Virus record (IMG/VR): IMGVR_UViG_3300037722_000745
Coordinates: 192,001-256,000 of that record
Reading direction: 5' to 3' (one strand)
DNA from: a virus
Taxonomy: Duplodnaviria; Caudoviricetes
Length of the DNA stretch: 64,000 nt
The notes beneath the pieces are model-generated. The model searched no databases, was not told the DNA's origin, and saw only the letters and a program-made list of their open reading frames with translations. Shown here one piece after another: positions 10,631 through 62,900 of the stretch (position 1 is its first letter; each line of letters starts with the position of its first letter). A program made the translations under genes and the position numbers.

Positions 10631-10951
10631 TCAATGGGTTGTTTTCGTGGCTTTCAGCCGCGGGACATCCTCAGGATCAAGCTGCCCAGACTCTACAAGG
10701 CGAGCCAAGATCTCAACCGATTTCAAAGGGGTCACGATAAAACGGACTTCCTCCCCCTGATACTGCTCGAGGATGGTCTGAACGTCCAAAAAATCGAAAG
10801 ACCCATCGGCCTGCTGGATCCGTAGGACCATGCGACCATTCATCGGATCCAGCTCTACAACACCCTCGATAAGGGCTCCCAGATCCAAACCCTCAACGGA
10901 CGGGACAGACGCCATTTGCACACTCTTCAATCTCGACATCTCCACCGTCAT
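10631..10951 (-). CDS. Hypothetical protein
   Basis: 106-aa ORF overlapping the nrdJ end. Confidence 0.55.
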   Translation of the reverse strand: MTVEMSRLKSVQMASVPSVEGLDLGALIEGVVELDPMNGRMVLRIQQADGSFDFLDVQTILEQYQGEEVRFIVTPLKSVEILARLVESGQLDPEDVPRLKATKTTH

Positions 10952-23849: not shown

Positions 23850-23971
23850 AGCTTCTTCCCTCCTGCTCAGGCGTCGGGTAGAGCCGGTATTTGTAATTCC
23901 GCCGGAGGTCCACTCCGAGGCCCTACACCAGTCAAGCGCGAGCTTTGCCCTTTAGCCGTGGAATTGTGGCA

Positions 23972-25375
23972 TCAATCCGCGCCCTTGAGGTTCGAGACCG
24001 GGTAAAGCCGGTGTTCAACTCTCGCAATCCCCTCCGCCTCTAGAACGGCGAGAACCGCGTCGAGATCCTTGTAGACGTGCCCGCACTCATCAAGCGGCGT
24101 CTTCTTGTGATTGCCCACGATCCCCTCGATCTGGACGCCGCCGAAGGTTCGCTTGACGCTCGCCATCTCGTTGTCGATTCGAGCCTGCTTGTGCCCCAGC
24201 CGGCGCTTCGCTTCTGAGCGGCCTAAGATCCGACCCGAACCGTGGTTCACCGAGCAGGCGGACTTGTAGGCCCCATCTCCCGGGAACAGGATCGCAGCAC
24301 CTTCGTACATCGAGCCCGGAATGAGGCACGGGTGACCCGTAGTCTCCCACGCCGTCCCTACCAGGTCAGGATGCCCTGCCGGAAAGGCTCGGGTTGCTCC
24401 CTTCCGATGCACGAAGCCCCGCTTGTGGGTCCCGTCGGGCAGCACAAGGGTCTCTTCCTGCACCAGGTTGTGGCTGATCTCGTAGTAGACTTCGAGGTCA
24501 GCGTTGAACACTTCCTGCGTCGCCTCTTGAACCCCCACCACGATCTGATGACGGTTCGCGACCGCGAAGTTGGCCGCCGAGTTGTGGTAAGCCCAGTACT
24601 CTCGACCAAGAGGCTCATCTATTCGAAGCCAGGAATCCTCTCGACGGTTCTTCGGTAACCCCCGGAGAGCGGCCCCTTCGTAGAAGAAGTGGTTCGCCGT
24701 CTGCCAACCGTAGCCCCGCGACCCACAGTGGACCATCACCCAAACCGACCCGTCATCTCGATCGACTTGCATCTCGATGAAGTGGTTGCCGCCACCCACG
24801 CTACCGAGCTGGTCGGACACCTTCGAGTAGGCTTTCTCGATGTGACTTAGATCCAACGTCTCCGGGATCGGGATGTACCGCCGCTCACAGAGCGCCTCGT
24901 TGATCCCCAAAGACTTGGCCCCATATCGAAGCACCTCGTCGACCTGACGAGAGCCCAGCCGCCTCATGAGGGCAGGCCGCTCGGACCCTACGCCGGTCGC
25001 CACCCGCTTCTCGACTTCCTCGACCCACTGCTGACGCTTGTGCCGACTCCGAACCGCCTTGGCTCCAAGGTTCACTTTCATGCAAAGAGCCCCGCACGAG
25101 ATGTCGTAGCCCGAGCCGCCCTGGATGATCGTGTCTTCAGTCACGATGACCGAGCCGACCGGCACGCCGTATCCCCTGTGGCAATCCGGCATCAGGTACG
25201 CCCCAATGACCCCCTCGTAGGACGCCCCGTTCGCGATCTGCTGCCAGACCGACTCTTCCGACGCCGCATAAAGGTCATCCGACAAAAAGGCATGAGCCTC
25301 CACCCGCATCTGCCCAACGCGGGGCAGCACGTAGTGATTGTCGCTGACCTTCTGAGCCTGGTACTTGAAAGACAT
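23972..25375 (-). CDS. rtcB: RtcB RNA ligase
   Basis: MPDCHRGYGVPVG, GYDISCG, GSVGGGNHFIE, MVHCGSRG, SHN, HRKGATRA, NHGSGR. Confidence 0.95.
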   Translation of the reverse strand: MSFKYQAQKVSDNHYVLPRVGQMRVEAHAFLSDDLYAASEESVWQQIANGASYEGVIGAYLMPDCHRGYGVPVGSVIVTEDTIIQGGSGYDISCGALCMKVNLGAKAVRSRHKRQQWVEEVEKRVATGVGSERPALMRRLGSRQVDEVLRYGAKSLGINEALCERRYIPIPETLDLSHIEKAYSKVSDQLGSVGGGNHFIEMQVDRDDGSVWVMVHCGSRGYGWQTANHFFYEGAALRGLPKNRREDSWLRIDEPLGREYWAYHNSAANFAVANRHQIVVGVQEATQEVFNADLEVYYEISHNLVQEETLVLPDGTHKRGFVHRKGATRAFPAGHPDLVGTAWETTGHPCLIPGSMYEGAAILFPGDGAYKSACSVNHGSGRILGRSEAKRRLGHKQARIDNEMASVKRTFGGVQIEGIVGNHKKTPLDECGHVYKDLDAVLAVLEAEGIARVEHRLYPVSNLKGAD

Positions 25376-25704: not shown

Positions 25705-26179
25705 GTCTCGCCGCAGCGAGCAATCAGGATCGGTCCCCAGCGGCTGATTCCTGCCGGAGGCAGTCACGCCTACTCCGCGTCTCGCCGCAGCGAGCAATCA
25801 GGATCGGTCCCCAGCTGATCATCACGATTCAGCTGCCGGCATCCGCTTCAAGTCTCGCCGCAGCGAGCAATCAGGATCGGTCCCCAGGACGTCCTCGAGA
25901 TCAACGGCAACGAGTACGACGCGAGGTCTCGCCGCAGCGAGCAATCAGGATCGGTCCCCAGCTACGGCGTCCGACGTGATGAGCGTGGCCGCGAGAACGT
26001 CTCGCCGCAGCGAGCAATCAGGATCGGTCCCCAGCAGCGTGCGAGCTGCGGATCGGTGGCTGCAGCCTTGTGTCTCGCCGCAGCGAGCAATCAGGATCGG
26101 TCCCCAGCTGCAAAAACTGGACTTCGCGTTATATGCCGTCCTCGTCTCGCCGCAGCGAGCAATCAGGATCGGTCCCCAG
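25705..26179 (-). CRISPR. Type V (Cas12j) CRISPR array: 7 repeats, 6 spacers (36-38 nt)
   Basis: Identical 36-nt repeat CTGGGGACCGATCCTGATTGCTCGCTGCGGCGAGAC with 3' hairpin CTCGC/GCGAG, 128 bp downstream of cas12j. Confidence 0.98.
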
Positions 26180-26307: not shown

Positions 26308-28464
26308 TCACTCAGCCGCGAGAGACTCCAGGGGGGTAGACGCCACTGAGGCTCTCGCGGCTTTCCGGAGGGATACACCAGTGATGGCTACCATCGCGAT
26401 ATTATAGGCAGCCACATCGATGTCCGCGTTCCCACGGTACCCGCAACAAACACATATGAAAGCTTCACGATTGACTCGGTCTCGATTGGCCTTGTCACAG
26501 TGCCCGCACTCGGGGCACGTCCGTGATGTATTATACGGATCCACTTTGATCACCCGATAGCCTCGGTGCACAGCCAAGTCGCAGAACGCTCCGAAGAGAG
26601 CGTCCATGAGCCACCGCCCTTCCTGTTTGGCTGCGAAGAAACCACCCCACCCTGACTTACGGCTCCCCTTCCCGCCTCTACGGAAGCTGTGATGAAGGTC
26701 CTCGACCGCTACGATGACCTTTCCGCACTGAGCCCGCTTCTCGGCTGTCCTAATGACGTAGTTGACGCAGTGTCGCGACAACTCCTTCTTGCGGATGGAT
26801 AGCTGGTGGTACTTCGAGCTGTTCCTTTCAGCCTCCCATTTGGCTTCGTTCAGTGCCTTGCGGGTCTCGGATGTCAGTTGAGGCCGAAAATGCTGAGCCC
26901 AGTTCACGTCCCATCTCTTGCGAATCTCGGTCTTCCGCTTTTTCCCTTTACCCTTGAAGAAGGGGAACATGTAGAGCGTGTCGTCCACACCACGTTCCTT
27001 CGCCAAGTCAGATAGAATAGAGCTTCGACTGTTCACCTTGTCCCAGGGTACTTCATCCACCGATAGCCCGAGATGGCCACACACCTGCATCTTGGCTTGC
27101 TCTGGTCCGAAGGTATCCAACGCCAACACCTCCGCTTGTTGTTCGGCGGTCAGAGAGCGTACGGCTGCTAACCGCAAATTCTCTTGGTGCTTGTCATACG
27201 CCTTACGAAACCGGAAGAAGTCCTCTACAGTCTGCTCCGGTAACGTAAAAGCCTGCAACCGTTCTACGCACTTCCCTGGACGAATCCGTAGCGCATTCGC
27301 AGCGATCAAGTTGTTGACGCCTAGATCGACACCTACGAGGCTAAACGTCTCCGTGGTGTCATCTAGCATCTTCGACACATAGGATCCCTTCACAACCTTG
27401 GCCTTGACGACCGGCACGACCCCTTGCTTATAGATCAACGTGGCGGTGTAACGTACCGGCTTGCCCGGCTTCTTCACTACACTCAACGTGGGGTCATTCG
27501 TCACCAGATTCAGAAGACTCTCAATCGTCACCGGCACCGATCGGTCTAACAATTTGCGGTACTGTGTGTTGCGGAGAAGCCCTCGGAGATCGAGAAGTGC
27601 CCAGTCATCAGCTACCCTAACGACCGCCAACAACATGTTGTCGTCGATCGCCCCACCACGTGAGCGTGCCCAAGAAGCCCGTTTCCGACGGTGCTTCTTA
27701 ACGGAAAGATTTTCTCGATCCCATGGGGGTACATACCCCGGTTGACCTTCAGGTATCTCTAGCCGATCTACACCACAAGCGGCGATGGGTGTTGACGGAT
27801 CTCGGCTATAACCCGTCACCCCAGGAATGGACCCAGGCACATAGGGCTTCAACTTCATATGCTGGTACCCAAACACGCTACAGTTGATCCCCGGGCGGTG
27901 CCGCAGATGACCTGTCTCATCGAGGGCCGTTTCAGGTTCGTCGAGTGTTAGAAGAGGTAGGCCACGTTCTGCCCGATGCTCGTTCCGCTGTTCAATCTTT
28001 GCTACCTTTTTGCTGTTGCGATTCTCAACCTTCTTGAGAACCCCCTCGTAGGTGGCCCGAGCGTTTTGGAAAATCAGGTTGAGACCTTGGACATTGAAGT
28101 ACCCGTCCGTGTCCACCCGCGTAGCCTTAAGCCAGGCCCTAAGCCCTGCTTCAGACTTCCCAGGATCCGTAGCCTTGAACTCCTCGTAACTCTGAGCATA
28201 GACGTACTTCTGGATCACCACCGACGCTTTGTAGATCGGCCACTCCTCCAAAGGCCGACTCATCGCCACGATGTTACACTTCACCGGAGGTTTGAAATTA
28301 GGCTGTGTTGTGCCCCCCTTTCCTTCAAGAAAGGCCACAGCAGCGCCTTCGCCTTTCGACTTGAGGATCCTACCAGCCTGCCTCGAGTCATGTTTTTTGA
28401 ACCGCAGCCCAGGGAAGGACTTCTTACAGAGGGCGACGAGTGGGGTTTCCTTTTTGTCTGGCAC
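26308..28464 (-). CDS. cas12j: Cas12j (CasPhi) type V effector, 718 aa
   Basis: Split RuvC (VGVDLG, VAVEDL, NADIDVAAYNIA), Zn ribbon CPECGHC..C..C, and NVQGLNLIFQNAR and C-terminal LAAE segments recalled from CasPhi-1; adjacent array; no cas1/cas2 in the window. Confidence 0.93.
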   Translation of the reverse strand: MPDKKETPLVALCKKSFPGLRFKKHDSRQAGRILKSKGEGAAVAFLEGKGGTTQPNFKPPVKCNIVAMSRPLEEWPIYKASVVIQKYVYAQSYEEFKATDPGKSEAGLRAWLKATRVDTDGYFNVQGLNLIFQNARATYEGVLKKVENRNSKKVAKIEQRNEHRAERGLPLLTLDEPETALDETGHLRHRPGINCSVFGYQHMKLKPYVPGSIPGVTGYSRDPSTPIAACGVDRLEIPEGQPGYVPPWDRENLSVKKHRRKRASWARSRGGAIDDNMLLAVVRVADDWALLDLRGLLRNTQYRKLLDRSVPVTIESLLNLVTNDPTLSVVKKPGKPVRYTATLIYKQGVVPVVKAKVVKGSYVSKMLDDTTETFSLVGVDLGVNNLIAANALRIRPGKCVERLQAFTLPEQTVEDFFRFRKAYDKHQENLRLAAVRSLTAEQQAEVLALDTFGPEQAKMQVCGHLGLSVDEVPWDKVNSRSSILSDLAKERGVDDTLYMFPFFKGKGKKRKTEIRKRWDVNWAQHFRPQLTSETRKALNEAKWEAERNSSKYHQLSIRKKELSRHCVNYVIRTAEKRAQCGKVIVAVEDLHHSFRRGGKGSRKSGWGGFFAAKQEGRWLMDALFGAFCDLAVHRGYRVIKVDPYNTSRTCPECGHCDKANRDRVNREAFICVCCGYRGNADIDVAAYNIAMVAITGVSLRKAARASVASTPLESLAAE

Positions 28465-28482
28465 CCGGAGGCCCTACACCAA

Positions 28483-29100
28483 TCAGATGCGAGTCTTGCC
28501 CTTTGGCCGCGGAATCGTGGCGTCATGCAGCCGAAAGCCCAGCTTTGCCTGACCCAACCACGCAAGGACCTGAAGCGTCGGATGGGCCACCAGGTTGTGG
28601 AAGGCCCACGCATGCCTGGCAACCCTGAAGCGCTTGCCTTCGATCATCGCCGGCCGAAGATCCATCACAAGGTCGAGCGCTTGCTGTCCTTCAACCACGT
28701 ACAAGCCGCTGTCTCGCGTGTAGACTTTGACCCTCAAGTGTCTCTCCAACTCTGCACAATCCACCTGGAGAATCGCCTCCCGAAGGATGAGCTGGTCGAG
28801 CACTTTCACGTGAAACGACACTACTCTGCCCCGAGGAACTGCATCACGATCCGATGTGCATGCTCCGATTCCTGTTGAAACTGCCGCCGCCAGAAAGCGC
28901 TGTCGCGCTCGTGCATTTTCCGCCGCTGACACTCCGACAGCCAGAGATAGCCAAACAGAACGGTTCCGATCCCCATCAACGCACAGAAAGCCATACTGCT
29001 CACCTACACCGGATCGTCGGAATCCTTGAAGCCGGGTAGAAACTGCACCCCAGTCGTGAATTCGATCGCCGGCCGCCAAGTCATGCCACAGTGCTGACAC
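28483..29100 (-). CDS. Hypothetical protein(s), boundaries uncertain
   Basis: Overlapping ORFs in the track. Confidence 0.3.
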   Translation of the reverse strand: MSALWHDLAAGDRIHDWGAVSTRLQGFRRSGVGEQYGFLCVDGDRNRSVWLSLAVGVSAAENARARQRFLAAAVSTGIGACTSDRDAVPRGRVVSFHVKVLDQLILREAILQVDCAELERHLRVKVYTRDSGLYVVEGQQALDLVMDLRPAMIEGKRFRVARHAWAFHNLVAHPTLQVLAWLGQAKLGFRLHDATIPRPKGKTRI

Positions 29101-31850: not shown

Positions 31851-32396
31851 CTAACCTATCGAGATCAGTCGATCCTCACCGCCGAGGTAAAAAGCCCACT
31901 CTGCAGGAGCCTTGGCGATCGGGATCGCCGGCACCGACAGAGGAAGCTCCTTGGGCCTGTACGGGCGTCTAAGCAACTTCATCTTGGCTTGCTCCGGCGT
32001 CCGCCCCGCCTTGCGGGAGTTGCAGGAGTAACAAGACGTCACGATGTTCTCCCACACCGTTCGACCACCCAACTTCCGCGGATTCACGTGGTCGTAGTTC
32101 AGCTCCCGACGAGGAGCCCGCTTTCCGCAGTACTGGCACGTGAAATTATCTCGAGTCAGAACGTTGGTCCGAGAGAACTTTACGCCCTTCTTGTTGAAAG
32201 GGATCTTCGTCGTAAGCCGGGCTACCGACGGAATCTCAAACGACACGCTTGGGGAAGTCGCCACGAACGGCTCTCCATCCCATGTCGTTTCAAGCGGCTC
32301 GATGTGAGAGTCGAGCAGCTTGCAGATCGCGTCTTGCCACGGAACAATCCGGTGCGCTTGCATCCATGGAGTTAGGATCAGAGTGTGGAATTGCAT
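31851..32396 (-). CDS. McrA-like HNH endonuclease
   Basis: RDNFTCQYCG, DHVNPRKLGG, WENIVTSCYSCNSRK. Confidence 0.9.
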   Translation of the reverse strand: MQFHTLILTPWMQAHRIVPWQDAICKLLDSHIEPLETTWDGEPFVATSPSVSFEIPSVARLTTKIPFNKKGVKFSRTNVLTRDNFTCQYCGKRAPRRELNYDHVNPRKLGGRTVWENIVTSCYSCNSRKAGRTPEQAKMKLLRRPYRPKELPLSVPAIPIAKAPAEWAFYLGGEDRLISIG

Positions 32397-38912: not shown

Positions 38913-39863
38913 CTAACCCACATGCCGAAACACTACAAGACGACCTTCCCGCTCCGCCTGGCGAATGACCGGCGGCAGAGATTCTAAACTCAACCAAGCA
39001 TCCCCGCGGGTGCCGCCCGCAAAATCCGTGTCGTCGTAGTGTGCCGTCAGACAGATGCCCGCGTCGATGATCTGTAGAGTCCGAGCGTCGCATGTGCACT
39101 CGTAACGCCGCCCACCCATCCGGAACCGCACGACCATCTCGTTGCGTCGCGGGGCCTGCCGGTGATCGAGATACTCAGCCTCACCAACCGCGAGAGCCGC
39201 CCGAGCCGCGGTCCCGAAATCCTCTTGGGCCAACGCCCGCCGGCCAGCACCATCACCGAGCTGCTCCGCGATCTCCCGACGACGGGTTTCCCGCTGCCGT
39301 TCCTCTTCCTCACGCTGAAGGCGTTCCGCCAGCTCCCGCCGACGCCGCTCCGCCTCCAACCGCCGCCACCGCTCAAGCGTGAAGGCGACATCCAAAGCCG
39401 GCGACACCTCTCGGATATCAGCTAGCGTATCCTTGCCGTCCAGAAAGGCCGTCTGCACCTCGAACTCGGGCCCCAGAGGCATTTCTTGCTGGATGTAGAC
39501 CAACGGGCCGTCCTCGGACACGCGGCCCGCAGAGACCCGTACGAAGCGATCTAGGCCCGGTTCGATGAGATGGACCCGCTCCGTCTCGCTCTTAAAGGAG
39601 GCGAGCTTCCTTTGCGAAGCCGACACGAGCCGATCGCCGACCAGGTAGCCTACCTCTCGGTACTTGAGCTGCTCCGGCTCGGGATCACACACCTCCTGGA
39701 CCCGAGCCGTCCGACCGCCCACCGAGAACCGAACCCAGCCATGCTCCGCCGGCAGCCGACCCTCGATCACCCACCGACGTGGGCCCGACCGGAGGGACCT
39801 ACCCCCAATCCAAGGCGCGACAAGCGTCTCGCCTTCAGTCGCAAGTAAGTCTCTCCAACCCAT
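38913..39863 (-). CDS. Putative E2-like (UBC-fold) protein containing an in-frame CRISPR repeat
   Basis: C-terminal IIDAGICL (candidate catalytic Cys); operon with JAB, Ubl and E1. Confidence 0.6.
   Translation of the reverse strand: MGWRDLLATEGETLVAPWIGGRSLRSGPRRWVIEGRLPAEHGWVRFSVGGRTARVQEVCDPEPEQLKYREVGYLVGDRLVSASQRKLASFKSETERVHLIEPGLDRFVRVSAGRVSEDGPLVYIQQEMPLGPEFEVQTAFLDGKDTLADIREVSPALDVAFTLERWRRLEAERRRRELAERLQREEEERQRETRRREIAEQLGDGAGRRALAQEDFGTAARAALAVGEAEYLDHRQAPRRNEMVVRFRMGGRRYECTCDARTLQIIDAGICLTAHYDDTDFAGGTRGDAWLSLESLPPVIRQAEREGRLVVFRHVG
39583..39618 (-). repeat. Solitary family-2 repeat inside a CDS
   Basis: gtctcgctcttaaaggaggcgagcttcctttgcgaa encodes SQRKLASFKSET. Confidence 0.88.
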
Positions 39864-40018
39864 GGCCCAGCCACCTATTACACCGATTAGGCTGCCAGCA
39901 AACAACCAAAACGAAGGGATTCGCCCCATCAAAGTGGAATTACTACCACTGTCACGGCGTCCAAATTTTGGTTTGGGATGTCACATGAGGGTTAATTAAA
40001 CACCCTGATTTCAACGAC

Positions 40019-40300
40019 GTGTTGGGTTTGGCCTACTTCCTGCAAGCCTGGCGGAGCCCTCCTGGGGCCAAAATGGAGATGAAAATGAAAGACACAGAAC
40101 GCCTGCTGCCCTGGAACCAACACGGCGACATTCACCACACGTTCACGAACAAAGGGTCTGGAATTGTCTACCCGCACGACGAAGGCTTCCACTGGGAAGT
40201 TTTTGGTGGTGGAGACAGCTCCTGGCACGACCAGGCGGAATCTCTACACTCAGCTAAAGCCCACGTAGAAGGCACCTTTGTGGGTCGCGGCCTGATTTAG
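40019..40300 (+). CDS. Hypothetical protein
   Basis: ORF track; probable start MKMKDTE. Confidence 0.45.
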   Translation: MLGLAYFLQAWRSPPGAKMEMKMKDTERLLPWNQHGDIHHTFTNKGSGIVYPHDEGFHWEVFGGGDSSWHDQAESLHSAKAHVEGTFVGRGLI

Positions 40301-40329
40301 ATCGACAAGCGGGGCGTCGTCTAATTTCA

Positions 40330-40713
40330 CTACCAGACGACGCCCCCACCTCGTTTTTCAAGCCGGCCCGCAGAGACCCGTACAAAGCGATCTAGGCCCG
40401 GTTCGATGAGATGGACCCGCTCCGCAGCACGGAGAACCTCCCCGTCCGCTTGTCCAGCCTGAACCGAGGACGGTACGAGGCGATCTCCAACGAGATAGCC
40501 AACCTGCCTGTGCCACAGGCTTTCTAACTCAGGTTCGGCCAGAGCCTTGACCTGAGCCTTACGTCCCTCCAACGCAAACTCAATCCAGCCATGCTCTACA
40601 GGAAGGCTCCCCTCGATGACCCAGCGACGGGAGCCCGACCGGAGGGACCGGCCCCCAACCCAAGGTGCGACAATCGTCTCACCTTCTTTCTGAAGTAGGG
40701 TCCTCCAAGTCAT
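40330..40713 (-). pseudogene. Truncated paralog of the E2-like gene (N-terminal 127 aa)
   Basis: APWVGGRSLRSG, EHGW, YLVGDRLV and ERVHLIEPGLDRFVRVSAGR shared with the E2-like gene. Confidence 0.8.
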
Positions 40714-41642
40714 GACTCTCCAACCCTAATCTTCCAGGACTCCAAACTCTCACCACGTCTTCTACGTCGGGCCAACTTCAGTCTTGCTTCGGGGGTACTA
40801 AGAGCCTTCGTTATAGCCTCGCTATGTTTGGCTTTAACTTCGGGGATACTGAGTGTCTGGGCTATAGCCCTACCGCGTTTCTCTTTCTCCCCAGGTTGAG
40901 CCCATTGGCCTTTCATCCTACGACTCATAGCGGCCAGCCGTTCCAAAGTCATTGATGCTTGAACACCAATCTTATGGCGCTTCTTCACCTCAGGTAGGGC
41001 CAGTCTCTTAGCTGCCTCAATGCTTAGCTTCTTTCGCACCTCACTTGTATACCCGGCTTTTTGAAGCTTGATGCGTTGCCCCCTTTCCTCGGCCGAGTAC
41101 CCAGCCCAAGATGCCTTAAGACCCGCACTACGTTTCTCCTTCTCACCGGGTCTGGAGTAAACCTCCAACATCTTAGCTCTACGACGAGCTTTAGAATCAG
41201 GTTGACTGCAGGCCAAGATCAACGCTTCACGGTGCCTAGCCTTTACGTCGGGCCGTGCCATAGCTAACTTTACCCCAGCACTGTTCTTAGCTCGAACCTC
41301 CGGCCTATTCTGAGCCTCTTTCCCAGACACCGACATTTTCCGTCGAGTCTCTGCCGAAGGCTTCCCGTTTGACCCACCTGTCTTCAGATTGTACCCAAGC
41401 GGAGACAGAGAGGTGGCCACCCATTTAATTTCCAGCGCATCCAATTCCTCTTTCGAGGATGCCTCACCAACGACCTCAAACACGAATTTGTCTCGGCCAT
41501 ACTTGGCGATAGCCGCCCGCAAAGCGTGGCAATGGCTGTCAGTCCTGAAATGATGTGACCACCTCTCCGAAGGGTTGATGGTTTGACCGTGGTAACATTT
41601 TCCGCTGACCAAACAACGAATCCTGTAAACCAAACCGTACAC
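40710..41642 (-). CDS. GIY-YIG homing endonuclease with NUMOD3-like repeats
   Basis: GLVYRIRCLVSGKCYHGQT, GYNLKTGG, SAETRRKMS. Confidence 0.88.
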   Translation of the reverse strand: MYGLVYRIRCLVSGKCYHGQTINPSERWSHHFRTDSHCHALRAAIAKYGRDKFVFEVVGEASSKEELDALEIKWVATSLSPLGYNLKTGGSNGKPSAETRRKMSVSGKEAQNRPEVRAKNSAGVKLAMARPDVKARHREALILACSQPDSKARRRAKMLEVYSRPGEKEKRSAGLKASWAGYSAEERGQRIKLQKAGYTSEVRKKLSIEAAKRLALPEVKKRHKIGVQASMTLERLAAMSRRMKGQWAQPGEKEKRGRAIAQTLSIPEVKAKHSEAITKALSTPEARLKLARRRRRGESLESWKIRVGES

Positions 41643-41652
41643 AACCGCAGTT

Positions 41653-43590
41653 TTAGCAAAAGGCTGCTGGCTTCTGCAACAGATCCGTCTTGAGAATGGT
41701 TTCCACGAGGGTTACTCGCGGAGCGGCCTTTACCACTGCCCTACCTACCGGCGTGGCAGCGATCATGGCTCGGATGGTAGGCGGGATCGCGTAGGGATCC
41801 GCGAAGATCCCCTCGTCGATCATGAAGCACGGGATGCCGAGTTGGGCTGCCGTGTCCGTGACCGCGTGGTACATGGGGGAGCTGCGGACCTTCAAGAAGC
41901 CAAATGCAATCGGGTTGAGGCCCGAAGCTTGGACCGCCTTATGGAACGGGCCAGCCTCCTCATCTCCGACGAAGATAAACAACACATCCTCGTCCGGCTG
42001 AGGCTTATGTTGATTGAGAGCCCGAACCCCCGCTCCGTAGTCAGTCCCTCCTCCTGCATGGATCCCGCGGAACGCCTGTTCGACGCCCGCTGCGGATTCA
42101 TGCTTAAGGGCAATCTCTCGCCCCGTAGTGTTGAAGACCGAGATGTGCACCTGGTCCTTGGGGAAGCCCTGTAGGAACTTCGCCAAGTAGCGCTTGGCTT
42201 CGGTGATCGCGTTCTGCATGGATCCCGAGATGTCCACCATGAAGTAGATCCGCAAACCCTTCACGACTTCCTCGACCGCCGCCTTGAGGGCGTTGTCGGC
42301 CGCCTCGTTCAGCTTCTCTTGGGTCGCCTTCGACCGCACTCGGGTCGCGATGTTCGCTGCCCGCATGTCGTCGGCTTCCTTAGTGGCACACTCCCACCGC
42401 TCTCGAATCTCCTGGACCTCAAGAAGTCCAAGCTCTTCGAGCGTTGGGGTTGCGATCAAAAGGTCCTTGTTGGAAAGAGACCCTGCCTCGATGGCTGCCG
42501 CCACAATCGCCCGCGTCAGCCCCATACCCTTCGGCAGGAGCCCCACGATGCGCTTGAAGTTAGGCTTGGTCGCAACGATAGTCTCGCAGACCTGCTCCTC
42601 CGAAAGGCCCTCCCAGGACTCCGCAGCCTTGACAGCCTGGCCGATGGCGACGGTACGGTGACCCTCGTCGGCCTGCTGCTGCCCCCACCGCAGCGTCTCG
42701 AAGAACTTTGGTGAGGTCGGCTTGTACCGGCAGGCGATGGCGAGTTCGATCACCTTCGTCCGGAAGCCCGCCTTGACGAGGCCCTCCAACATCTGAGGGT
42801 TCTCTTCACGGTACCGGAGCCACTTCTCCGCCGCCTTGGGCCAACGACCCATGAACGGCCGACGAGCGGACTTGCCAAAGCCCAGCTCCCGGTTGATCTC
42901 GGCCACCTGCGGCAGCCGTAGGATGTCGTGGATCCGCATTAGAAGCTTGGGATCGAATGTCTTGATCTCGTTCTTCTGTTGTGCCCCGTCACCTTGAGAG
43001 CGGGACCGGGTGAGCAGCAGCATGGCCTCACCGACATCCCGGTAATCCTCGTCGAAGAACAGGACCTTGCCGTTCTCAACAACCGGGTCACCCTTGCGGT
43101 ATTGCACGAGCATGAACGCCGCGAGAATGACCTTCAGGTCCCGGTGCTCCTGCCCGAATGCGTAGCTGGCCCACTTGGCGGCGAACTCGTTGTCGAGCTT
43201 CCAGACCTCGGCGACCTGCTTGTACATCCAGATCACGACCTCCGGGTAGAGGCCGGGCGGCTGGTAGCGACCAACAGCGCGGTTGCCGTCCTTAACGATG
43301 ACATCGCCCTGAAGCACTGGGGCGAGCGTCGCGGGGTTCCGACCCGTGGTCATCTTCCCGAGCTTGACCTTGGTGCCCTTCCGACGGCCCACGCCCTTGC
43401 GAAGCTCGTAGACGATCTTGTCGCCCTCTTCCTCTGCGTGGGTCACCGGCAGCCACTTCGTGCCCACCACGGAGCCAGGATCTGGAATCACTACGCCTGG
43501 TCGGTTGTGCATTGCGTGATCAGAATACGAGAGGACCGTCTGGAGGATTCTCTCAGCCGGCCCGAGTGCGTTCTGTTCGTGATTTGGCAC
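41653..43590 (-). CDS. vWA-domain protein, possibly TROVE/Ro60-like
   Basis: C-terminal MIDAS MVDISGSM, GGTDY and FVGDEE; helical N-terminal region; TROVE assignment is inference. Confidence 0.65.
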   Translation of the reverse strand: MPNHEQNALGPAERILQTVLSYSDHAMHNRPGVVIPDPGSVVGTKWLPVTHAEEEGDKIVYELRKGVGRRKGTKVKLGKMTTGRNPATLAPVLQGDVIVKDGNRAVGRYQPPGLYPEVVIWMYKQVAEVWKLDNEFAAKWASYAFGQEHRDLKVILAAFMLVQYRKGDPVVENGKVLFFDEDYRDVGEAMLLLTRSRSQGDGAQQKNEIKTFDPKLLMRIHDILRLPQVAEINRELGFGKSARRPFMGRWPKAAEKWLRYREENPQMLEGLVKAGFRTKVIELAIACRYKPTSPKFFETLRWGQQQADEGHRTVAIGQAVKAAESWEGLSEEQVCETIVATKPNFKRIVGLLPKGMGLTRAIVAAAIEAGSLSNKDLLIATPTLEELGLLEVQEIRERWECATKEADDMRAANIATRVRSKATQEKLNEAADNALKAAVEEVVKGLRIYFMVDISGSMQNAITEAKRYLAKFLQGFPKDQVHISVFNTTGREIALKHESAAGVEQAFRGIHAGGGTDYGAGVRALNQHKPQPDEDVLFIFVGDEEAGPFHKAVQASGLNPIAFGFLKVRSSPMYHAVTDTAAQLGIPCFMIDEGIFADPYAIPPTIRAMIAATPVGRAVVKAAPRVTLVETILKTDLLQKPAAFC

Positions 43591-43635
43591 GATCCACCTC
43601 TCTCGCAACCCTCCGCATGGGAGGGGAATTGCCGC

Positions 43636-48694: not shown

Positions 48695-48798
48695 TTGTGG
48701 TGATTTGCCATTCGCGTGCGGGATCAACCACCAACCCGTAGACGCACTCGTAGGTCGTTCCTACGCGCAATCACCACGCTACGGTGCCGAAACACCGG

Positions 48799-48871
48799 CA
48801 CTCCCGACAGGACTCGAACCTGCATGATCCTGGTTAGAAGCCAGGCGCCTATCCAGTTAGACTACGGGAGC
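48799..48871 (-). tRNA. tRNA-Arg(TCT)
   Basis: Cloverleaf. Confidence 0.9.
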
Positions 48872-48875
48872 ATTG

Positions 48876-48911
48876 GTCTCACTCTAGAGGGAGGTGAGCT
48901 TCCCTCGCAAC
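48876..48911 (-). repeat. Solitary family-2 repeat variant
   Basis: gtctcactctagagggaggtgagcttccctcgcaac, 29/36 to the array-type repeat with compensatory stem CTCAC/GTGAG; 4 nt upstream of tRNA-Arg(TCT). Confidence 0.8.
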
Positions 48912-49442: not shown

Positions 49443-50051
49443 GCCTTGGCTGTAGGCAAGAATTTAACGAAGCTCAGACTGTAACTCTTGAGGGGTCGAA
49501 ATTTTGCGCATAACACCATAGAAAAGCCATAAATGGCTTAGCAGCTTACCTTGAAGGCTGGCACCCAGGACATCGAACTCGAAGCTTATGGGGAGCAACC
49601 CCACATGGAAAGAGTGTTCGGGATCCTCTGCGCATGCTCGGGCCAATCCTTGAACTTGTCGCCGTAGTTCTCTCGACACAACCGAGTGATCGCGATGTGA
49701 GAACTGAGACACACAGACATGATCTTACGCGTCTCCCTGGCACTCAATCCAGAAGCCGTAGGCCCAGACCTCCACAGAGCCGACAACTCCTCCTCACTAA
49801 GAGGAGCTTCCAGACTCCCTCCCAAATCGGACAAGGAAGCGTCAATATCCGCTGTAGAGGCCATCTCTCGGGTTTTTGATTGTGTTTCTGATGGGCGGAA
49901 TATACACCGCAGGCAGCATGCCCCCGAGCGCCCAAAGCGGAAGCCGGAGAACTCGAATCCCAAACGACCCCGAGAGGCCGTTCCCACCGCTTTCCAAGCG
50001 GGTCCAGTCCCTAACTGGTTCAGCTTCCAAGGGGAGCCTGTTGAGGGAATC

Positions 50052-50158
50052 GTCTCGCCGCAGCGAGCAATGAGTGCATGACTACACCAAGCCAACAAGC
50101 GCTGATGGAAGCAGGCCAGTTGCGTGACTACGTAGTGGACCTGTCGGGAGTTGAACCC
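50052..50158 (-). repeat. 107-bp duplication (copy A) ending in a 20-nt Cas12j-family half repeat
   Basis: 2 mismatches versus 51439-51545. Confidence 0.9.
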
Positions 50159-51158: not shown

Positions 51159-51258
51159 AGAAGTATCACAACGGTCCCGGGCCGGGTGCGACGAGCTAGC
51201 CACACGCGCCGAGTAGCTAGCTCGGACGCGCTGCGTTCTGTGCCCCGTTGTGACACGG

Positions 51259-51341
51259 TGCGAACGAGAGGAGTCGAACCTCCACGACCTCGCGATCAGC
51301 TGGGTTTGAGCCAGCCGCGTCTGCCATTCCGCCACGTTCGC
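51259..51341 (-). tRNA. tRNA-Leu(CAA)
   Basis: Class II cloverleaf. Confidence 0.9.
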
Positions 51342-51391: not shown

Positions 51392-51438
51392 CATACAGGA
51401 AATCCTTCTTGCAAGCTACGGTGCTGGAGACAGGAGTC

Positions 51439-51545
51439 GTCTCGCCGCAGCGAGCAATGAGTGTATGACTACACCAAGCCAACAAGCGCTGATGGAAGCA
51501 GGCCAGTTGCGTGACTACGTGGTGGACCTGTCGGGAGTTGAACCC
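51439..51545 (-). repeat. 107-bp duplication (copy B) ending in a 20-nt Cas12j-family half repeat
   Basis: See copy A. Confidence 0.9.
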
Positions 51546-51676: not shown

Positions 51677-51678
51677 AG

Positions 51679-51750
51679 CGGAGCCGAGGGGACTCGAACC
51701 CCCCTCACTGGCGTGACAAGCCAGCCGCCTCACCCGATGCGTACGGCTCC
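51679..51750 (-). tRNA. tRNA-Asp(GTC)
   Basis: Cloverleaf, G73. Confidence 0.85.
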
Positions 51751-51754
51751 GTAA

Positions 51755-52009
51755 GTCCCACTCTTGATGGAGGTGGGCTTCCGTTGTGACCGTGCGGATT
51801 TCGGAGATGACGCTGAAGCCGTCATCGGTCCCACTCTTGATGGAGGTGGGCTTCCGTTGTGACTTCGCTCCGATCGCAATCCCGCAGGATCGCGACCAGC
51901 CGTCCCACTCTTGATGGAGGTGGGCTTCCGTTGCTGCCAGGCAGGACGGCTCGAAGTGGCTAAGATGATGTTGGTCCCACTCTTGATGGAGGTGGGCTTC
52001 CGTTGCTGC
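51755..52009 (-). CRISPR. Second CRISPR array (family 2): 4 repeats, 3 spacers (36-38 nt), no adjacent cas gene
   Basis: 36-nt repeat GTCAC/GCAGC-AACGGAAGCCCACCTCCATCAAGAGTGGGAC; leader-like region 52010-52160. Confidence 0.95.
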
Positions 52010-54940: not shown

Positions 54941-54976
54941 GTCTCGCTCTTGAAGGAGGCGAGCTTCCTTTGCGAG
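54941..54976 (-). repeat. Solitary family-2 repeat variant
   Basis: gtctcgctcttgaaggaggcgagcttcctttgcgag, nearly identical to the copy inside the E2-like gene. Confidence 0.85.
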
Positions 54977-59973: not shown

Positions 59974-62900
59974 TCATTCCTCCGGGACCAGTTCTTCGAG
60001 ACGAGATGAGATGTCCGCGAGGTCGTCATCAAATGCTTTGTCTCCCGACTTCGTGCGGAGTGCCTTCAGGCGAGCTTCGGCCAGGGCATGGAAGTCTGGA
60101 TCCTTCTCGATTCCGACGTACTGACAGCCCGCCTGAATAGCCGCTACACAGGTTGTCCCTGTTCCGCAGTACGGATCGAGCGTTGTCCCACCTCGGGGCG
60201 TAACGAGCTTGACCAACCATTCCATGAGGGAGAGAGATTTCATCGTGGGGTGAGGGTTCTTCGCTCCCTTCATCCAACCTTCACGCTCTTGCTTGCTGAC
60301 CTTCGCTGTGTAGAAGAATGGAGCCTCAGGCTCGAACTGACCGAAGTAGCGTGAAGCCCCTCCTCCCTCACCCACTACCGATGATGGTTTTGACCCATCA
60401 GCAGTTGTGACTGCCCCGTGGTAGCCCATACCCTTTTGACATTCACCGGAGAACCATCCCGGGGCTCTAAAACCGCTCTGCTTGTCCAACGCCTTGACCG
60501 GACACCCCTCGACACACTCGTAGACGGGGATCTCCTCCATCCCATCAGCATCACCTTGCGGCTCTGACGTGTAAGAGTGTCCGGCCCCATCACCGAACGG
60601 CTTCATCCCGTCATCGAAGCGGTTGATGACGGGGGCCTTGACCCGCTTCGAACCTACGACCTCACACTCGGTCGAATGAATCATCAGAGTGTTAGCTGGC
60701 CAACGCCCATGATTGTGGACCTCCGTCTCCACACCCCCGACCATCCCCTTCACCATCGTGTTGCGAGCTTTGCCCGGCGAACTGCTGTTGGTCCGCGTCG
60801 TGTGGCCGATCCGCGTCGCATCGATATTCAGCCCGCCCGTACCGTGCTTCAGAACGTTCTGAGCAACAGTAGCCTCCGAAAGAGGCTTACGGAACACTAA
60901 TATCGGTTCCCACGAGGGTTTAAGAGCCGTGCCAAGGCCATCAAATTGTGAAGCGGCTTCGGAGTCCACCCCTGCCTTCAACACCGCTTTCTTCACATTT
61001 AAACTCTTGGGAAAACCAGAGTTACCTGTGATGAACACCCTACCATTGCGTCGAGCTACGAACGCCCCAGTCTCCACGCGAACACACCACACCTCCCCGT
61101 CATAGTCTTTCAGATGGGTCGCATGGAGATGTCTGGACTGTAATTCCGTAGTCCGATTGTCGTGCAACGAAACACAACGCTTCTTCGCGTTGTCCCGACC
61201 TTGCCACCCGATCATGTGGGCCAGGACCTGAAACCACTCACGGTCAACACCGTCTTTTTGGTAGAATTGCTTCTGGCCTACAGATCCATCCCCGTCCATA
61301 GCTGCGGATAGAAACGCCCTCTTCTCATCAAGGGTCATCCGCCACAACAGGTCGTAAGTTGGATGTTTGCCGGGCAAGATCTCTCGAACACTCAGAGCCG
61401 GTTCGCCCGAGAAGAACCACGTGTATTCTGTGTACTCCCGGCCCTTGTATGTGCGTACCCTCTCGTACTTTTTGAAGTCGGGAGCGAACTTCTGAGTCAA
61501 CCGATCAATCTCAACCACATGGTCGGGATTGACACTGCTCTGGTAAATGCGAACACCCGTCCAGGAGTTATCGAATCCGCCCTCAGTCCAGATCCACGCC
61601 AAGAAAGCAGCGTAGTCTTCCCCGCCAATCCCCGCCCCATCGTGGTACCCAGCCAATGGTAGCTTGATTGCTTGCCACCGATTGATCTCAGCAGCCTCCA
61701 TCGGAACCCACTCTTCCTCGAACCACTTGCGACGGGTTTTTGCTACCTGTCTACGGATAGCGTGTCGCTTGAATACGCGATGGTTAGGGGTCAGTAGCTG
61801 ATCGGTGTTGTCGTTACGAAAGCACACCATCGACCCCTGGTAAGGGGCTCGGAACACTTCTAAGACAGGACGTAATCCAATCCCCTCTGTGGCCGGGTCC
61901 CACGTGGCTACCGACAAACCTTCTTTGAGTTGGTCCGGTCCCACCCACCCGTGCTCAGTGAGAATCTCACTATCCTCACTGAGACACCCGTAAACCCACT
62001 GGAACACCTGGACGCTGAACTGCGCTGCTACGGTATCTCGACACTCAAAACCCGCGAATCGCAGTCCCATCGAGATTAAGTCGAACGTGCGGGTGGAGCC
62101 AAAGCTCAAGAGGTGCCCGCCGGGCTTGAGGGCGCGGTAGCATTCCCTCCATACGGCAACGGGCGGGATTTCCCAGGTATGACCCATAAAATCTTTATGT
62201 GTCTTGTGTGGTGAATGGAAACGATCCAACAGAACCCTTGGCACCGCAACGTTCAACGTAATTGCCCCGCCTGCGGGCAACCCTACCTTGCAAGTCAGAA
62301 AGCGCTTGAGAAGCGTCGTCAGACTACCTGCTCCAGACGCTGTTCCTATACACTCCGAGGAAGTCAGAAGAAGTCGAGCGTCGGCTTGGTCTGCGGGGTC
62401 TGCAAAAACGAGTTCACCAGAAACCCGAGCCACATCAAGGGTAAGCACGGCGCAAACTTCTGTAGCCCTATCTGTCACTATAAAGGGCGCTCCCTCGGGC
62501 TCTCCAAACGGATTGTGTACAAGCCGTACAACCATACGAAACAAGGCCGGGCCAACCGAAGTAAAGCAGCCGCACACCTCTACGCATCCGGTAAAGGTTT
62601 GGCTTTCCCGAAGACAGAACTGGCGGTCCTTGAGCGCCTCAAAACCCAAGGAATCAACGTTGTCCACCAGAAGGTTGTCGAACTTCCCGACAGGGCCTAT
62701 GCGGTTGACTTCTTTTTCCCCACTAGAGCCGACGGGGGTTTGATCATCGAATTGGATAACCCCGGACGACATGATCGGGGGTTGATGCACGCTGACTTTG
62801 AACGAGACAAGATCTTGAGCGAATTGGGGTTCGAGGTCGTCCGCTTGTGGGACAACGGACGACCGGAGAATGCTATTCGCGCAGTGCTGGACACCCTTCT

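What the first reader, a model, noticed from the sequence alone, without database searches (positions are those of the whole stretch)
39523..40426. CRISPR repeat embedded in-frame in an E2-like gene, with a 39-nt perfect protospacer in the adjacent paralog
Seen: a 36-nt family-2 repeat (39583-39618) encodes SQRKLASFKSET in place of the paralog's segment (PSSVQAGQADGEVLRAA) and keeps the ORF open. The 60 nt after it match the truncated paralog (40364-40423) at 59/60, the first 39 nt perfectly. Elsewhere the two genes look clearly more diverged (roughly 70-80% by eye). The protospacer 5' flank is TGC (fits TBN), and the paralog is truncated just past the match, next to a GIY-YIG gene. Inference: an mRNA that doubles as a pre-crRNA against the sister allele, and direct evidence that repeat plus spacer recombined into its own target gene.
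Basis: partly seen in the sequence, partly recalled or inferred. Interest (0 to 1): 0.87.

Follow-up and report, generated by a model that had tools for sequence, protein, structure and literature searches.

The report
CRISPR repeat inside a phage gene
A giant phage that carries its own Cas12j (CasPhi) nuclease has one copy of a CRISPR repeat sitting in-frame inside a conserved gene, followed by 60 bases that recur almost exactly, next to a PAM-like flank, in a truncated older copy of that gene; the pattern is real, but it looks more like a recombination scar than a proven self-made guide RNA.

Summary
A 36-nt Cas12j-type solitary repeat (39583-39618, crRNA sense = mRNA sense) replaces the variable loop of a conserved 316-aa huge-phage gene, in frame. 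The next 60 nt match a truncated paralog (40364-40423) at 59/60. The rest of the two copies is 72-76% identical (dS about 0.94), and orthologs match the block at only 72-73%. The target flank is TGC, which fits the TBN PAM of CasPhi-2. The window's Cas12j is a close CasPhi-2 homolog. Three independent assemblies carry the same arrangement, so it is not a misassembly.

- The identity tract (60 nt) is longer than the 36-38-nt spacers.
- Its upstream edge is hidden by the repeat-for-loop replacement, and its other edge is the truncation point.
- A fully active guide would cut the phage's own fixed genome.
- No RNA data exist.
- "E2-like" has no Pfam or fold support.

My best reading (about 0.45) is a young recombination or gene-conversion tract in a locus invaded by a homing endonuclease, joined to a recent copy of one of the phage's many dispersed repeats. 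A working "mRNA = pre-crRNA" guide against repeat-less alleles remains possible (about 0.25). Other first readers of this scan noted the same repeat and the dispersed family on this genome.

The parts
38913..39863 (-). Full-length 316-aa gene of a large uncharacterised huge-phage family. In relatives it always lies directly after a vWA protein and before JAB/Ubl/ThiF genes.
   Evidence: ORF and translation. At least 892 homologs of 313-322 aa, the nearest at 70%. Synteny in relatives. AF2 model has pLDDT 83; the repeat-encoded residues 83-94 form a loop between strands.
39583..39618 (-). Solitary family-2 CRISPR repeat (36 nt), crRNA sense on the mRNA strand, in frame. It replaces the family's variable loop.
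   Evidence: It is 34/36 identical to the solitary copy at 54941-54976 with no flank homology. The stem keeps pairing through two double-sided compensatory changes across the family.
39523..39582 (-). 60-nt block in the 'spacer' position right after the repeat. It encodes ERVHLIEPGLDRFVRVSAGR.
   Evidence: 59/60 identity to 40364-40423.
40364..40423 (-). Matching block at the 3' end of the truncated paralog. The 5' flank (40424-40426, read on the minus strand) is TGC.
   Evidence: It is the only second genomic match of any repeat-adjacent sequence in the 323-kb contig.
40330..40713 (-). Truncated paralog (127 aa: 117 homologous residues plus a 10-aa tail). All family-invariant N-terminal residues are kept.
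   Evidence: dS 0.94 and dN/dS 0.27 versus the full copy. Longer branch in the N-terminal tree, 0.48 versus 0.18.
40710..41642 (-). Free-standing GIY-YIG homing endonuclease gene inserted between the vWA gene and the truncated paralog (ATGA stop/start overlap).
   Evidence: Pfam PF01541 E 2e-11. PHROG homing endonuclease E 2e-32. Absent at this position in all relatives examined.
40073..40300 (+). Convergent 75-aa ORFan between the two copies.
   Evidence: Called as a gene in the JGI assemblies. No homolog among 5.8 billion proteins other than itself.
40311..40359 (+). 12-bp GC-rich hairpin plus T-run (terminator-like for the ORFan). It ends 4 nt from the block at 40364.
   Evidence: Fold -27.3 kcal/mol, z -5.6.
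41653..43608 (-). vWA-domain protein, the conserved upstream neighbour of the gene family.
   Evidence: Pfam VWA_2. Synteny.
26308..28464 (-). Cas12j (CasPhi) effector, 718 aa. It is the only full-size Cas12 found on the contig.
   Evidence: PDB CasPhi-2 7lys E 2e-159 over the full length. TNB domain. Genome scan.
25705..26179 (-). Family-1 array (7 repeats) next to cas12j. The repeat has the same GATTGC-stem-AC architecture as the published Cas12j-2 repeat.
   Evidence: Cas12j-2 repeat sequence in PMC11048056.
51755..52009 (-). Family-2 array (4 repeats, period 72-74) within the tRNA region.
54941..54976 (-). Closest relative of the in-gene repeat (34/36); intergenic, among tRNAs.

Best explanation
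The locus is a recombination scar in a part of the genome invaded by a homing endonuclease, and it has picked up one of the phage's own dispersed CRISPR repeats.

Shown:
- The ancestral arrangement in all relatives is vWA gene, about 30 nt, then a single copy of the gene.
- This phage instead has vWA, a GIY-YIG endonuclease, an old diverged 5' fragment of the gene, an ORFan with its terminator, and then the full gene.
- The full gene's variable surface loop has been replaced, in frame, by a recent copy of a 36-nt solitary repeat. That repeat belongs to a family kept under selection for its hairpin.

Inferred:
- The 60-nt near-identity is a young gene-conversion or repair tract between the two old copies.
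- Its ends are set by the two heterologies: repeat versus loop on one side, the truncation on the other.
- A double-strand break (from the endonuclease next door or from Cas12j) repaired from more than one template would explain why the repeat junction and the young tract touch.

As a by-product, the arrangement meets every sequence requirement of a CasPhi-2-type guide/target pair. I think it is more likely than not that this pair is inactive on the phage's own DNA. Possible reasons are a non-cognate long-loop handle, a wrong PAM for this ortholog, or the guide not being made.
For: - Ancestral synteny without endonuclease, ORFan or second copy.
- Old divergence of the copies (dS 0.94) against a single difference in the block.
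- Orthologs are only 72-73% identical in the block.
- The tract is 60 nt while spacers are 36-38 nt.
- The in-gene repeat is a near copy (34/36) of the solitary copy at 54941, sharing nothing beyond the 36-nt unit.
- It is the only family member inside a conserved gene.
- None of the other 27 repeat-adjacent sequences has a second genomic match.
- The arrangement is identical in three independent assemblies and eight runs, so it is stable rather than self-destructive.
- The repeat-encoded residues lie in a loop that varies in length and sequence across the family.
Against: - A randomly captured filler would rarely be exactly one full CRISPR repeat unit; repeats make up about 0.5% of the genome (my estimate).
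- The young tract starts at the very base where a spacer would start.
- The target flank fits TBN, a 19% chance on its own.
- No donor allele or intermediate form was found, so the order of events is not shown.
- A short island between diverged paralogs is not an easy substrate for ordinary gene conversion.
Confidence: 0.45

Rival explanations
1. Working hard-wired guide. Cas12j processes the mRNA of the full gene at the embedded repeat. The released handle-plus-block RNA guides Cas12j against repeat-less alleles of the same gene in co-infecting relatives. Those alleles carry a T-initial flank where this phage has the repeat's GAC. The truncated paralog is a captured remnant of such an allele that arrived with the homing endonuclease.
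For: - Sense orientation, intact handle, perfect 39-nt match and TGC flank.
- Close CasPhi-2 homolog with a published TBN PAM.
- A single repeat plus spacer inside a longer transcript is enough for guide production (PMC9942878).
- CasPhi-2 cuts mRNAs that carry its repeat (PMC9943656).
- Virus-borne mini-arrays that target nearby genes of close relatives are known (PMC6858448).
- Another array of this same phage carries a spacer matching its own gene at 34/39, with the mismatches in the seed next to TTC. This fits a war between close relatives.
- The 5' part of family 2 resembles the Cas12j-2 repeat.
Against: - The perfect PAM-like-flanked target lies in the phage's own genome and is fixed.
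- The tract is longer than a spacer.
- Known orthologs differ from the block at 27%, so no known relative would be hit.
- The handle is family 2, not the family-1 repeat next to cas12j.
- There is no promoter-like site and no RNA data.
Confidence: 0.25
2. RNA-level element only. Like the other solitary repeats, which punctuate the tRNA/mRNA transcripts of the minus strand, the in-gene copy is a processing or stability hairpin. Cutting there would lower or split expression of the gene. The neighbouring identity block is unrelated to its function.
For: - Nearly all solitary copies are intergenic, co-oriented with the tRNAs and genes, and some end 4-5 nt before a tRNA 5' end.
- Compensatory stem changes show selection on the hairpin.
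- CasPhi-2 lowers expression of repeat-bearing mRNAs.
Against: - It does not explain the young 60-nt tract or why it abuts the repeat.
- The in-gene copy is recent (34/36 to 54941), so its conservation says nothing yet.
Confidence: 0.12
3. Self-targeting as a switch. The guide cuts the truncated copy's block. Single-strand annealing between the two 60-nt blocks then deletes the 841-bp segment. This fuses the old N-terminal fragment to the C-terminal part and removes the guide, giving a subpopulation with a different N-terminal domain.
For: - Direct 60-nt repeats flank exactly one 841-bp unit.
- In two runs the 861-nt contig of that unit has about 0.8 times the k-mer depth of both flanks (46.1 versus 56 and 56; 16.4 versus 19.8 and 21.1). 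The shared 40-mer has flank plus loop depth rather than twice the flank.
Against: - In two other runs the depths are equal.
- Contig depths are rough.
- No hybrid protein appears among the homologs found.
- The deletion would be irreversible.
Confidence: 0.05
4. Assembly artefact or a mixture of two strains stitched together at the shared 40-61 nt.
For: The k=31 contigs break at the shared 40-mer, so they cannot phase it.
Against: - Three independent JGI assemblies, one a 214-kb contig, give the same order.
- The 861-nt contig begins and ends in the shared 40-mer, so it can only be placed in tandem.
- The shared 40-mer has about double depth.
- Low-coverage runs bridge each junction separately.
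Confidence: 0.02

Closest known systems
Solitary repeat units (SRUs) / RNA anti-CRISPRs (Racrs) in viral genomes (Faure 2019; Camara-Wilpert 2023, PMC10651486)
   Same: A lone CRISPR repeat with an intact hairpin in a virus genome, outside any array; one of many in this phage.
   Different: - Known SRUs mimic the host's repeats and are intergenic; the published finder masks ORFs.
- This repeat type was found only in this phage, not in arrays of 185,579 reference genomes or in other viral contigs.
- It resembles the phage's own Cas12j repeats and lies inside a coding sequence.
Virus-borne mini-CRISPR arrays used in conflicts between related viruses (Medvedeva 2019, PMC6858448; Faure 2019)
   Same: A repeat plus a sequence matching a nearby gene of a sister genome or allele. 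Self-protection would come from the flank or from sequence differences.
   Different: - Here there is a single repeat with no downstream repeat.
- It is embedded in the very gene it matches.
- The perfect target is in the same genome.
Spacer-protospacer homologous recombination between phages and CRISPR loci (Varble 2019, cited in PMC8616872)
   Same: A precedent for a repeat-spacer unit becoming joined to its target by recombination through the spacer.
   Different: - That case is host array versus phage and gives transducing particles.
- Here the tract is 60 nt, both partners are phage DNA, and the second junction, on the other side of the repeat, is unexplained (only TCG is shared there).
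Engineered CasPhi-2/Cas12a guides and degradation tags embedded in mRNAs (PMC9942878, PMC9943656)
   Same: One repeat followed by a spacer inside a longer transcript yields a guide, and the carrier mRNA is cut.
   Different: Those are synthetic constructs with repeats in untranslated regions. A natural case inside a reading frame has not, to my knowledge, been described.
Rickettsia palindromic elements and other small palindromic repeats inserted in frame in protein genes
   Same: A short hairpin-forming dispersed repeat sits in frame in a tolerant surface loop of a conserved protein.
   Different: Those elements are 100-150 bp and unrelated to CRISPR. Here the unit is exactly one 36-nt CRISPR repeat, and it replaces rather than adds sequence.
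Free-standing GIY-YIG homing endonucleases of large phages (T4 Seg/Mob type, from established knowledge)
   Same: An intergenic endonuclease gene inserted between two conserved genes, with disturbed flanking sequence.
   Different: The cleavage site is unknown. A partial duplication of the flanking gene with a young internal tract is not the usual outcome of homing.

Membership tests
CRISPR repeat of this phage's family 2 (Cas12j-type repeat) | Full-length similarity to the array repeat, with the 3' hairpin and terminal GAC | tested here: met
   27/36 identity to the array consensus and 34/36 to the solitary copy at 54941. All 7 stem pairs form. Two pairs co-vary across the family with no one-sided change.
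CRISPR repeat of this phage's family 2 (Cas12j-type repeat) | Recognised and processed by the phage's Cas12j | not testable with these tools
   The array next to cas12j is family 1. Family 2 shares the GTC..AACG 5' part and the stem-plus-AC end with the Cas12j-2 repeat but has a longer loop. The contig is only about 68% complete.
Functional crRNA / protospacer pair of a CasPhi-2-like effector | Repeat in sense orientation upstream of the spacer on a transcribed strand | tested here: met
   The hairpin-GAC end faces the block on the coding strand of an open 316-codon gene. Transcription itself was not tested.
Functional crRNA / protospacer pair of a CasPhi-2-like effector | Target identical to the spacer, with a 5' TBN PAM on the non-target strand | tested here: met
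   39 nt perfect, 59/60 overall, flank TGC. TBN is published for CasPhi-2. The PAM of this ortholog is unknown.
Functional crRNA / protospacer pair of a CasPhi-2-like effector | Spacer of array-like length, delimited like an acquired spacer | tested here: not met
   Array spacers are 36-38 nt. The identity runs 60 nt and stops only where the paralog stops.
Functional crRNA / protospacer pair of a CasPhi-2-like effector | Mature guide RNA present; target cleaved | not testable with these tools
   No RNA run holds the sequence. All holders are DNA contigs.
Virus-borne mini-array for conflicts between viruses | Target lies in a related virus while the carrier's own copy is protected | tested here: not met
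   The only match is in the carrier's own genome with an intact PAM-like flank. No relative carries the block.
Solitary repeat unit / Racr | Lone repeat that mimics the host's CRISPR repeat | tested here: inconclusive
   The pattern gave only 28 scattered single hits, no arrays, in reference genomes, and about 17 are expected by chance (my estimate). The host is unknown.
Ubiquitin-conjugating E2-like protein | Match to an E2/UBC or Prok-E2 profile or fold | tested here: not met
   No Pfam or PHROG family. No PDB, AFDB or Atlas fold match for the whole protein or for the C-terminal domain. Only the context (JAB, ThiF) and conserved cysteines point that way.
GIY-YIG homing endonuclease | GIY-YIG catalytic domain, free-standing, lineage-specific insertion between conserved genes | tested here: met
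   Absent from relatives at this site. Activity and target site were not tested.

The most novel reading that the evidence does not exclude
A natural 'guide inside a gene'. A Cas12j phage has copied one of its repeats into a conserved gene, so that the gene's own mRNA is processed into a guide whose spacer is native coding sequence. The repeat's GAC end replaces the PAM and protects the carrier allele. Any repeat-less allele, whether a co-infecting relative or the endonuclease-linked fragment next door, is cut. Repair from the carrier copy keeps the target identical (the 60-nt tract) or deletes the 841-bp unit. This would be adaptation-free, hard-wired CRISPR targeting between alleles, close to a natural gene-drive logic.
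Probability: 0.18. Interest if true: 0.88.

Novelty: new variant of a known kind. Interest (0 to 1): 0.55.

Why it matters
Solitary CRISPR repeats in viruses are known, but they have only been looked for outside genes. Here is a clean, reproducibly assembled case of one inside an intact conserved gene of a phage that carries its own CasPhi-type nuclease, and the sequence after the repeat has a perfect PAM-like-flanked twin 841 bp away.

If the RNA is processed, it would show three things:
- Phages lacking Cas1/Cas2 can make guides by moving repeats rather than by acquiring spacers.
- An mRNA can double as a pre-crRNA in nature.
- CRISPR cutting and homologous repair can shape paralogs.

If it is not processed, the locus is still a well-dated example of how CRISPR repeats spread as small dispersed elements and are tolerated in protein loops. 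It also shows that "spacer-like" matches next to lone repeats can arise by recombination alone.

Tried and rejected
- **Chance or protein constraint for the identity step: rejected.** P = 1.4e-6, and orthologs are 72-73% identical in the block.
- **Misassembly: rejected.**
- **Strain variants lacking the endonuclease, the loop unit or the repeat.** Runs with partial coverage were only low-depth copies of the same phage.
- **Donor allele of the truncated copy.** No relative was found in viral or metagenome contigs.
- **The 39-nt match elsewhere.** None in viral contigs. No hit of the locus or of the Cas12j array in GenBank phages.
- **Host origin of family 2.** No arrays in reference genomes and none in other viral contigs.
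- **Polarising the history.**
  - The N-terminal tree places the two copies in different, weakly supported groups.
  - Per-gene identities to six relatives are all 53-79%, with no pattern.
  - Bit-score correlations are uninformative.
- **PAM inference from array spacers.** No protospacers were found.
- **Promoter just upstream of the repeat.** None by the consensus scan.
- **Second effector.** Only a 282-aa TnpB-like remnant besides cas12j.
- **E2 fold.** No support.
Full report
**Setting.** The window is bases 192001-256000 of a 323-kb IMG/VR phage contig, with estimated completeness 68%.
- It carries 42 tRNA genes and a tmRNA, all on the minus strand.
- It has a 718-aa Cas12j that aligns over its full length with CasPhi-2 (PDB 7lys, E 2e-159).
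- A family-1 array of seven repeats lies next to that gene (25705-26179).
- A family-2 array of four repeats lies at 51755-52009.
- About two dozen lone hairpin-GAC elements of both families are scattered mostly between tRNAs and genes, co-oriented with them.
- Read on the minus strand, both families end in a 5-bp stem plus AC. This is how the published Cas12j-2 repeat ends (sequence in PMC11048056).
- The minus strand is therefore the crRNA sense.

**The observation.** The 36 nt at 39583-39618 are a family-2 repeat.
- It is 34/36 identical to the lone copy at 54941-54976. The two share nothing beyond the 36-nt unit.
- All seven stem pairs are intact. Across ten family members, two stem pairs change on both sides together and none changes on one side (97% of cells paired, 0 of 500 shuffles as good).
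- The repeat lies on the coding strand of an open 316-codon gene (38913-39863) and reads in frame as SQRKLASFKSET.
- A 127-codon paralog (40330-40713) aligns with the first 117 codons.
- At DNA level the N-terminal 84 codons are 76% identical, with dS 0.94 and dN/dS 0.27.
- About 41 nt of the paralog then face about 32 unrelated nt of the repeat, a difference of 9 nt.
- After that, 60 nt are 59/60 identical. Homology then ends.
- Four orthologous loci match the block at only 43-44/60, so protein constraint does not explain the step.
- On the minus strand the three bases before the paralog's block are TGC. Before the full copy's block they are the repeat's GAC.
- Of 28 repeat-adjacent 37-mers in the contig (array spacers and sequences after lone repeats), this is the only one with a second match.

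**Is it real DNA?**
- Three JGI assemblies from different samples, one a 214-kb contig, are 99.99-100% identical to the window over 8 kb around the locus.
- Logan k=31 contigs from eight runs agree without a single difference.
- These contigs break at the 40-nt exact repeat, as they must. An 861-nt contig begins and ends in that 40-mer, which has about double depth. Low-coverage runs bridge each junction separately.
- I found no variant form.
- One unexplained detail: in two runs the 861-nt contig has about 0.8 times the depth of both flanks (46.1 versus 56 and 56; 16.4 versus 19.8 and 21.1). In two others the depths are equal.

**What the gene and the locus are.**
- The gene belongs to a family of at least 892 proteins of 313-322 aa from large phage contigs. 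The nearest member is 70% identical, and none carries a Pfam domain.
- In every relative examined it is single-copy. It starts about 30 nt after a 618-642-aa vWA protein and is followed by JAB, small ORFs and ThiF/E1. The same downstream genes are present here.
- The family has a loop of variable sequence and length (consensus VRVDPDPxxIxxxS) exactly where the repeat sits, and no member has anything repeat-like there.
- In an AlphaFold model (pLDDT 83), the repeat-encoded residues form a loop between strands of an N-terminal beta-barrel.
- The label "E2-like" finds no support. There is no Pfam or PHROG family and no fold match, for the whole protein or for the Cys-bearing C-terminal domain. 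It remains a guess from operon context.
- Compared with the relatives, this phage has three extra pieces:
  - a GIY-YIG homing endonuclease gene between the vWA gene and the truncated copy, with an ATGA overlap;
  - the truncated copy itself, which therefore occupies the ancestral position;
  - a convergent 75-aa ORFan with a strong terminator hairpin that ends 4 nt from the block.

Every sequence requirement of a CasPhi-2-type guide and target is met.
- For CasPhi-2 the PAM is TBN.
- A single repeat followed by a spacer within a longer transcript gave the best editing (PMC9942878).
- Repeats embedded in an mRNA caused that mRNA to be degraded (PMC9943656).
- Virus-borne mini-arrays that hit nearby genes of sister viruses are known (PMC6858448).
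- A third, type-I-like array of this same phage carries a spacer matching its own gene at 34/39, with the mismatches in the seed beside TTC. This points to conflict with close relatives.
- A captured filler would rarely be exactly one repeat unit.

**Points against.**
- First, the identical tract is 60 nt while spacers here are 36-38 nt. Positions 38-60 are still 22/23 (P about 0.015-0.04). "A 39-nt protospacer" is therefore one mutation in a longer tract.
- Second, the tract's start at the repeat's last base is partly forced, because the repeat replaced the only sequence that could have shown where the tract really begins. Its end is simply the end of the paralog.
- Third, a fully active pair would cut the phage's own genome, yet the arrangement is fixed wherever the phage was assembled.
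- Fourth, the handle is family 2, whereas the array beside the only Cas12j found is family 1.
- Fifth, no known relative would be targeted, since orthologs differ from the block at 27%.
- Sixth, there are no RNA data.

**Most likely history.** I could not order the events.
- No close relative or donor allele exists in the collections searched.
- Trees and identities are uninformative at 60-75%.
- The simplest account is this. A locus already disturbed by the endonuclease and holding two old, diverged copies suffered a recent break-and-repair event. That event homogenised the short island between two heterologies and, in the same or a linked event, copied a lone repeat into the adjacent tolerant loop.
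- Only TCG is shared at the upstream junction.
- I give this 0.45.
- I give the working-guide reading 0.25, an RNA-processing-only role 0.12, a self-targeting deletion switch 0.05, and an artefact 0.02.

**Novelty and verdict.**
- Lone CRISPR repeats in viruses are known, but the published survey masked ORFs. An in-frame copy in an intact conserved gene, paired with a PAM-like-flanked twin in the same genome, is a new variant of that kind.
- It is a single case without expression data.
- Other first readers of this scan flagged the same repeat and the dispersed family on this genome. I re-tested the parts I use.

Noticed in passing
window 23911-23974 and 28462-28525: 64-nt direct repeats (81% identical) flank the whole rtcB / family-1 array / cas12j block (about 4.55 kb). 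This suggests the CRISPR-Cas module arrived as a cassette with a duplicated intergenic segment.
   Followed up: no
window 39554-40414 (Logan contig), runs X1 and X2: The 861-nt contig between the two copies of the shared 40-mer has about 0.8 times the k-mer depth of both flanks in two runs but equal depth in two others. A subpopulation may lack the 841-bp unit, or it may be noise.
   Followed up: partly
window 48876-48911 / tRNA-Arg 48797-48871; 51755-51790 / tRNA-Asp 51678-51750; 51356 / tRNA-Leu 51257-51341: Family-2 repeats end 4-15 nt before the 5' end of a tRNA gene, so the 'spacer' position is occupied by a tRNA. This points to a role in processing the tRNA transcript, or to tRNA-bearing guide-like RNAs.
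   Followed up: partly
window 50046-50158 and 51433-51545: 113-nt duplication (97%). It comprises the 3' end of a tRNA, a linker and a short-loop repeat variant with a different 5' half. A third copy of that variant lies at genome position 11450.
   Followed up: no
genome C1:61400-61900 (outside the window): A third array has a 36-37-nt repeat ending ATTGAAAC. One spacer (61665-61703) matches the phage's own DNA at 60212-60250 at 34/39, beside TTC, with four of the five mismatches at spacer positions 3, 4, 8 and 9.
   Followed up: partly
window 39583-39618 and 54941-54976: In these two copies only, the first five bases (T/C)TCGC repeat the 5' arm of the stem. RNA folding therefore prefers an alternative long-range pairing of bases 1-5 with 30-34, which could compete with the handle hairpin.
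   Followed up: no
window 10893-15125: The B12-dependent ribonucleotide reductase gene is interrupted by an intein with an HNH endonuclease domain. An HNH endonuclease also lies at 31851-32396. The region is rich in homing elements.
   Followed up: no
genome C1:292778-293626 (L013 1384-2232, minus strand): A 282-aa ORF has a strong Cas12f/TnpB zinc-ribbon domain match (87.6 bits). It is probably a TnpB remnant, too short to be a second effector.
   Followed up: partly
window 40073-40300: The 75-aa acidic, His-rich ORFan between the two gene copies has no homolog in 5.8 billion proteins. Small genes beside lone repeats are sometimes anti-CRISPRs (PMC10651486). This was not tested.
   Followed up: partly
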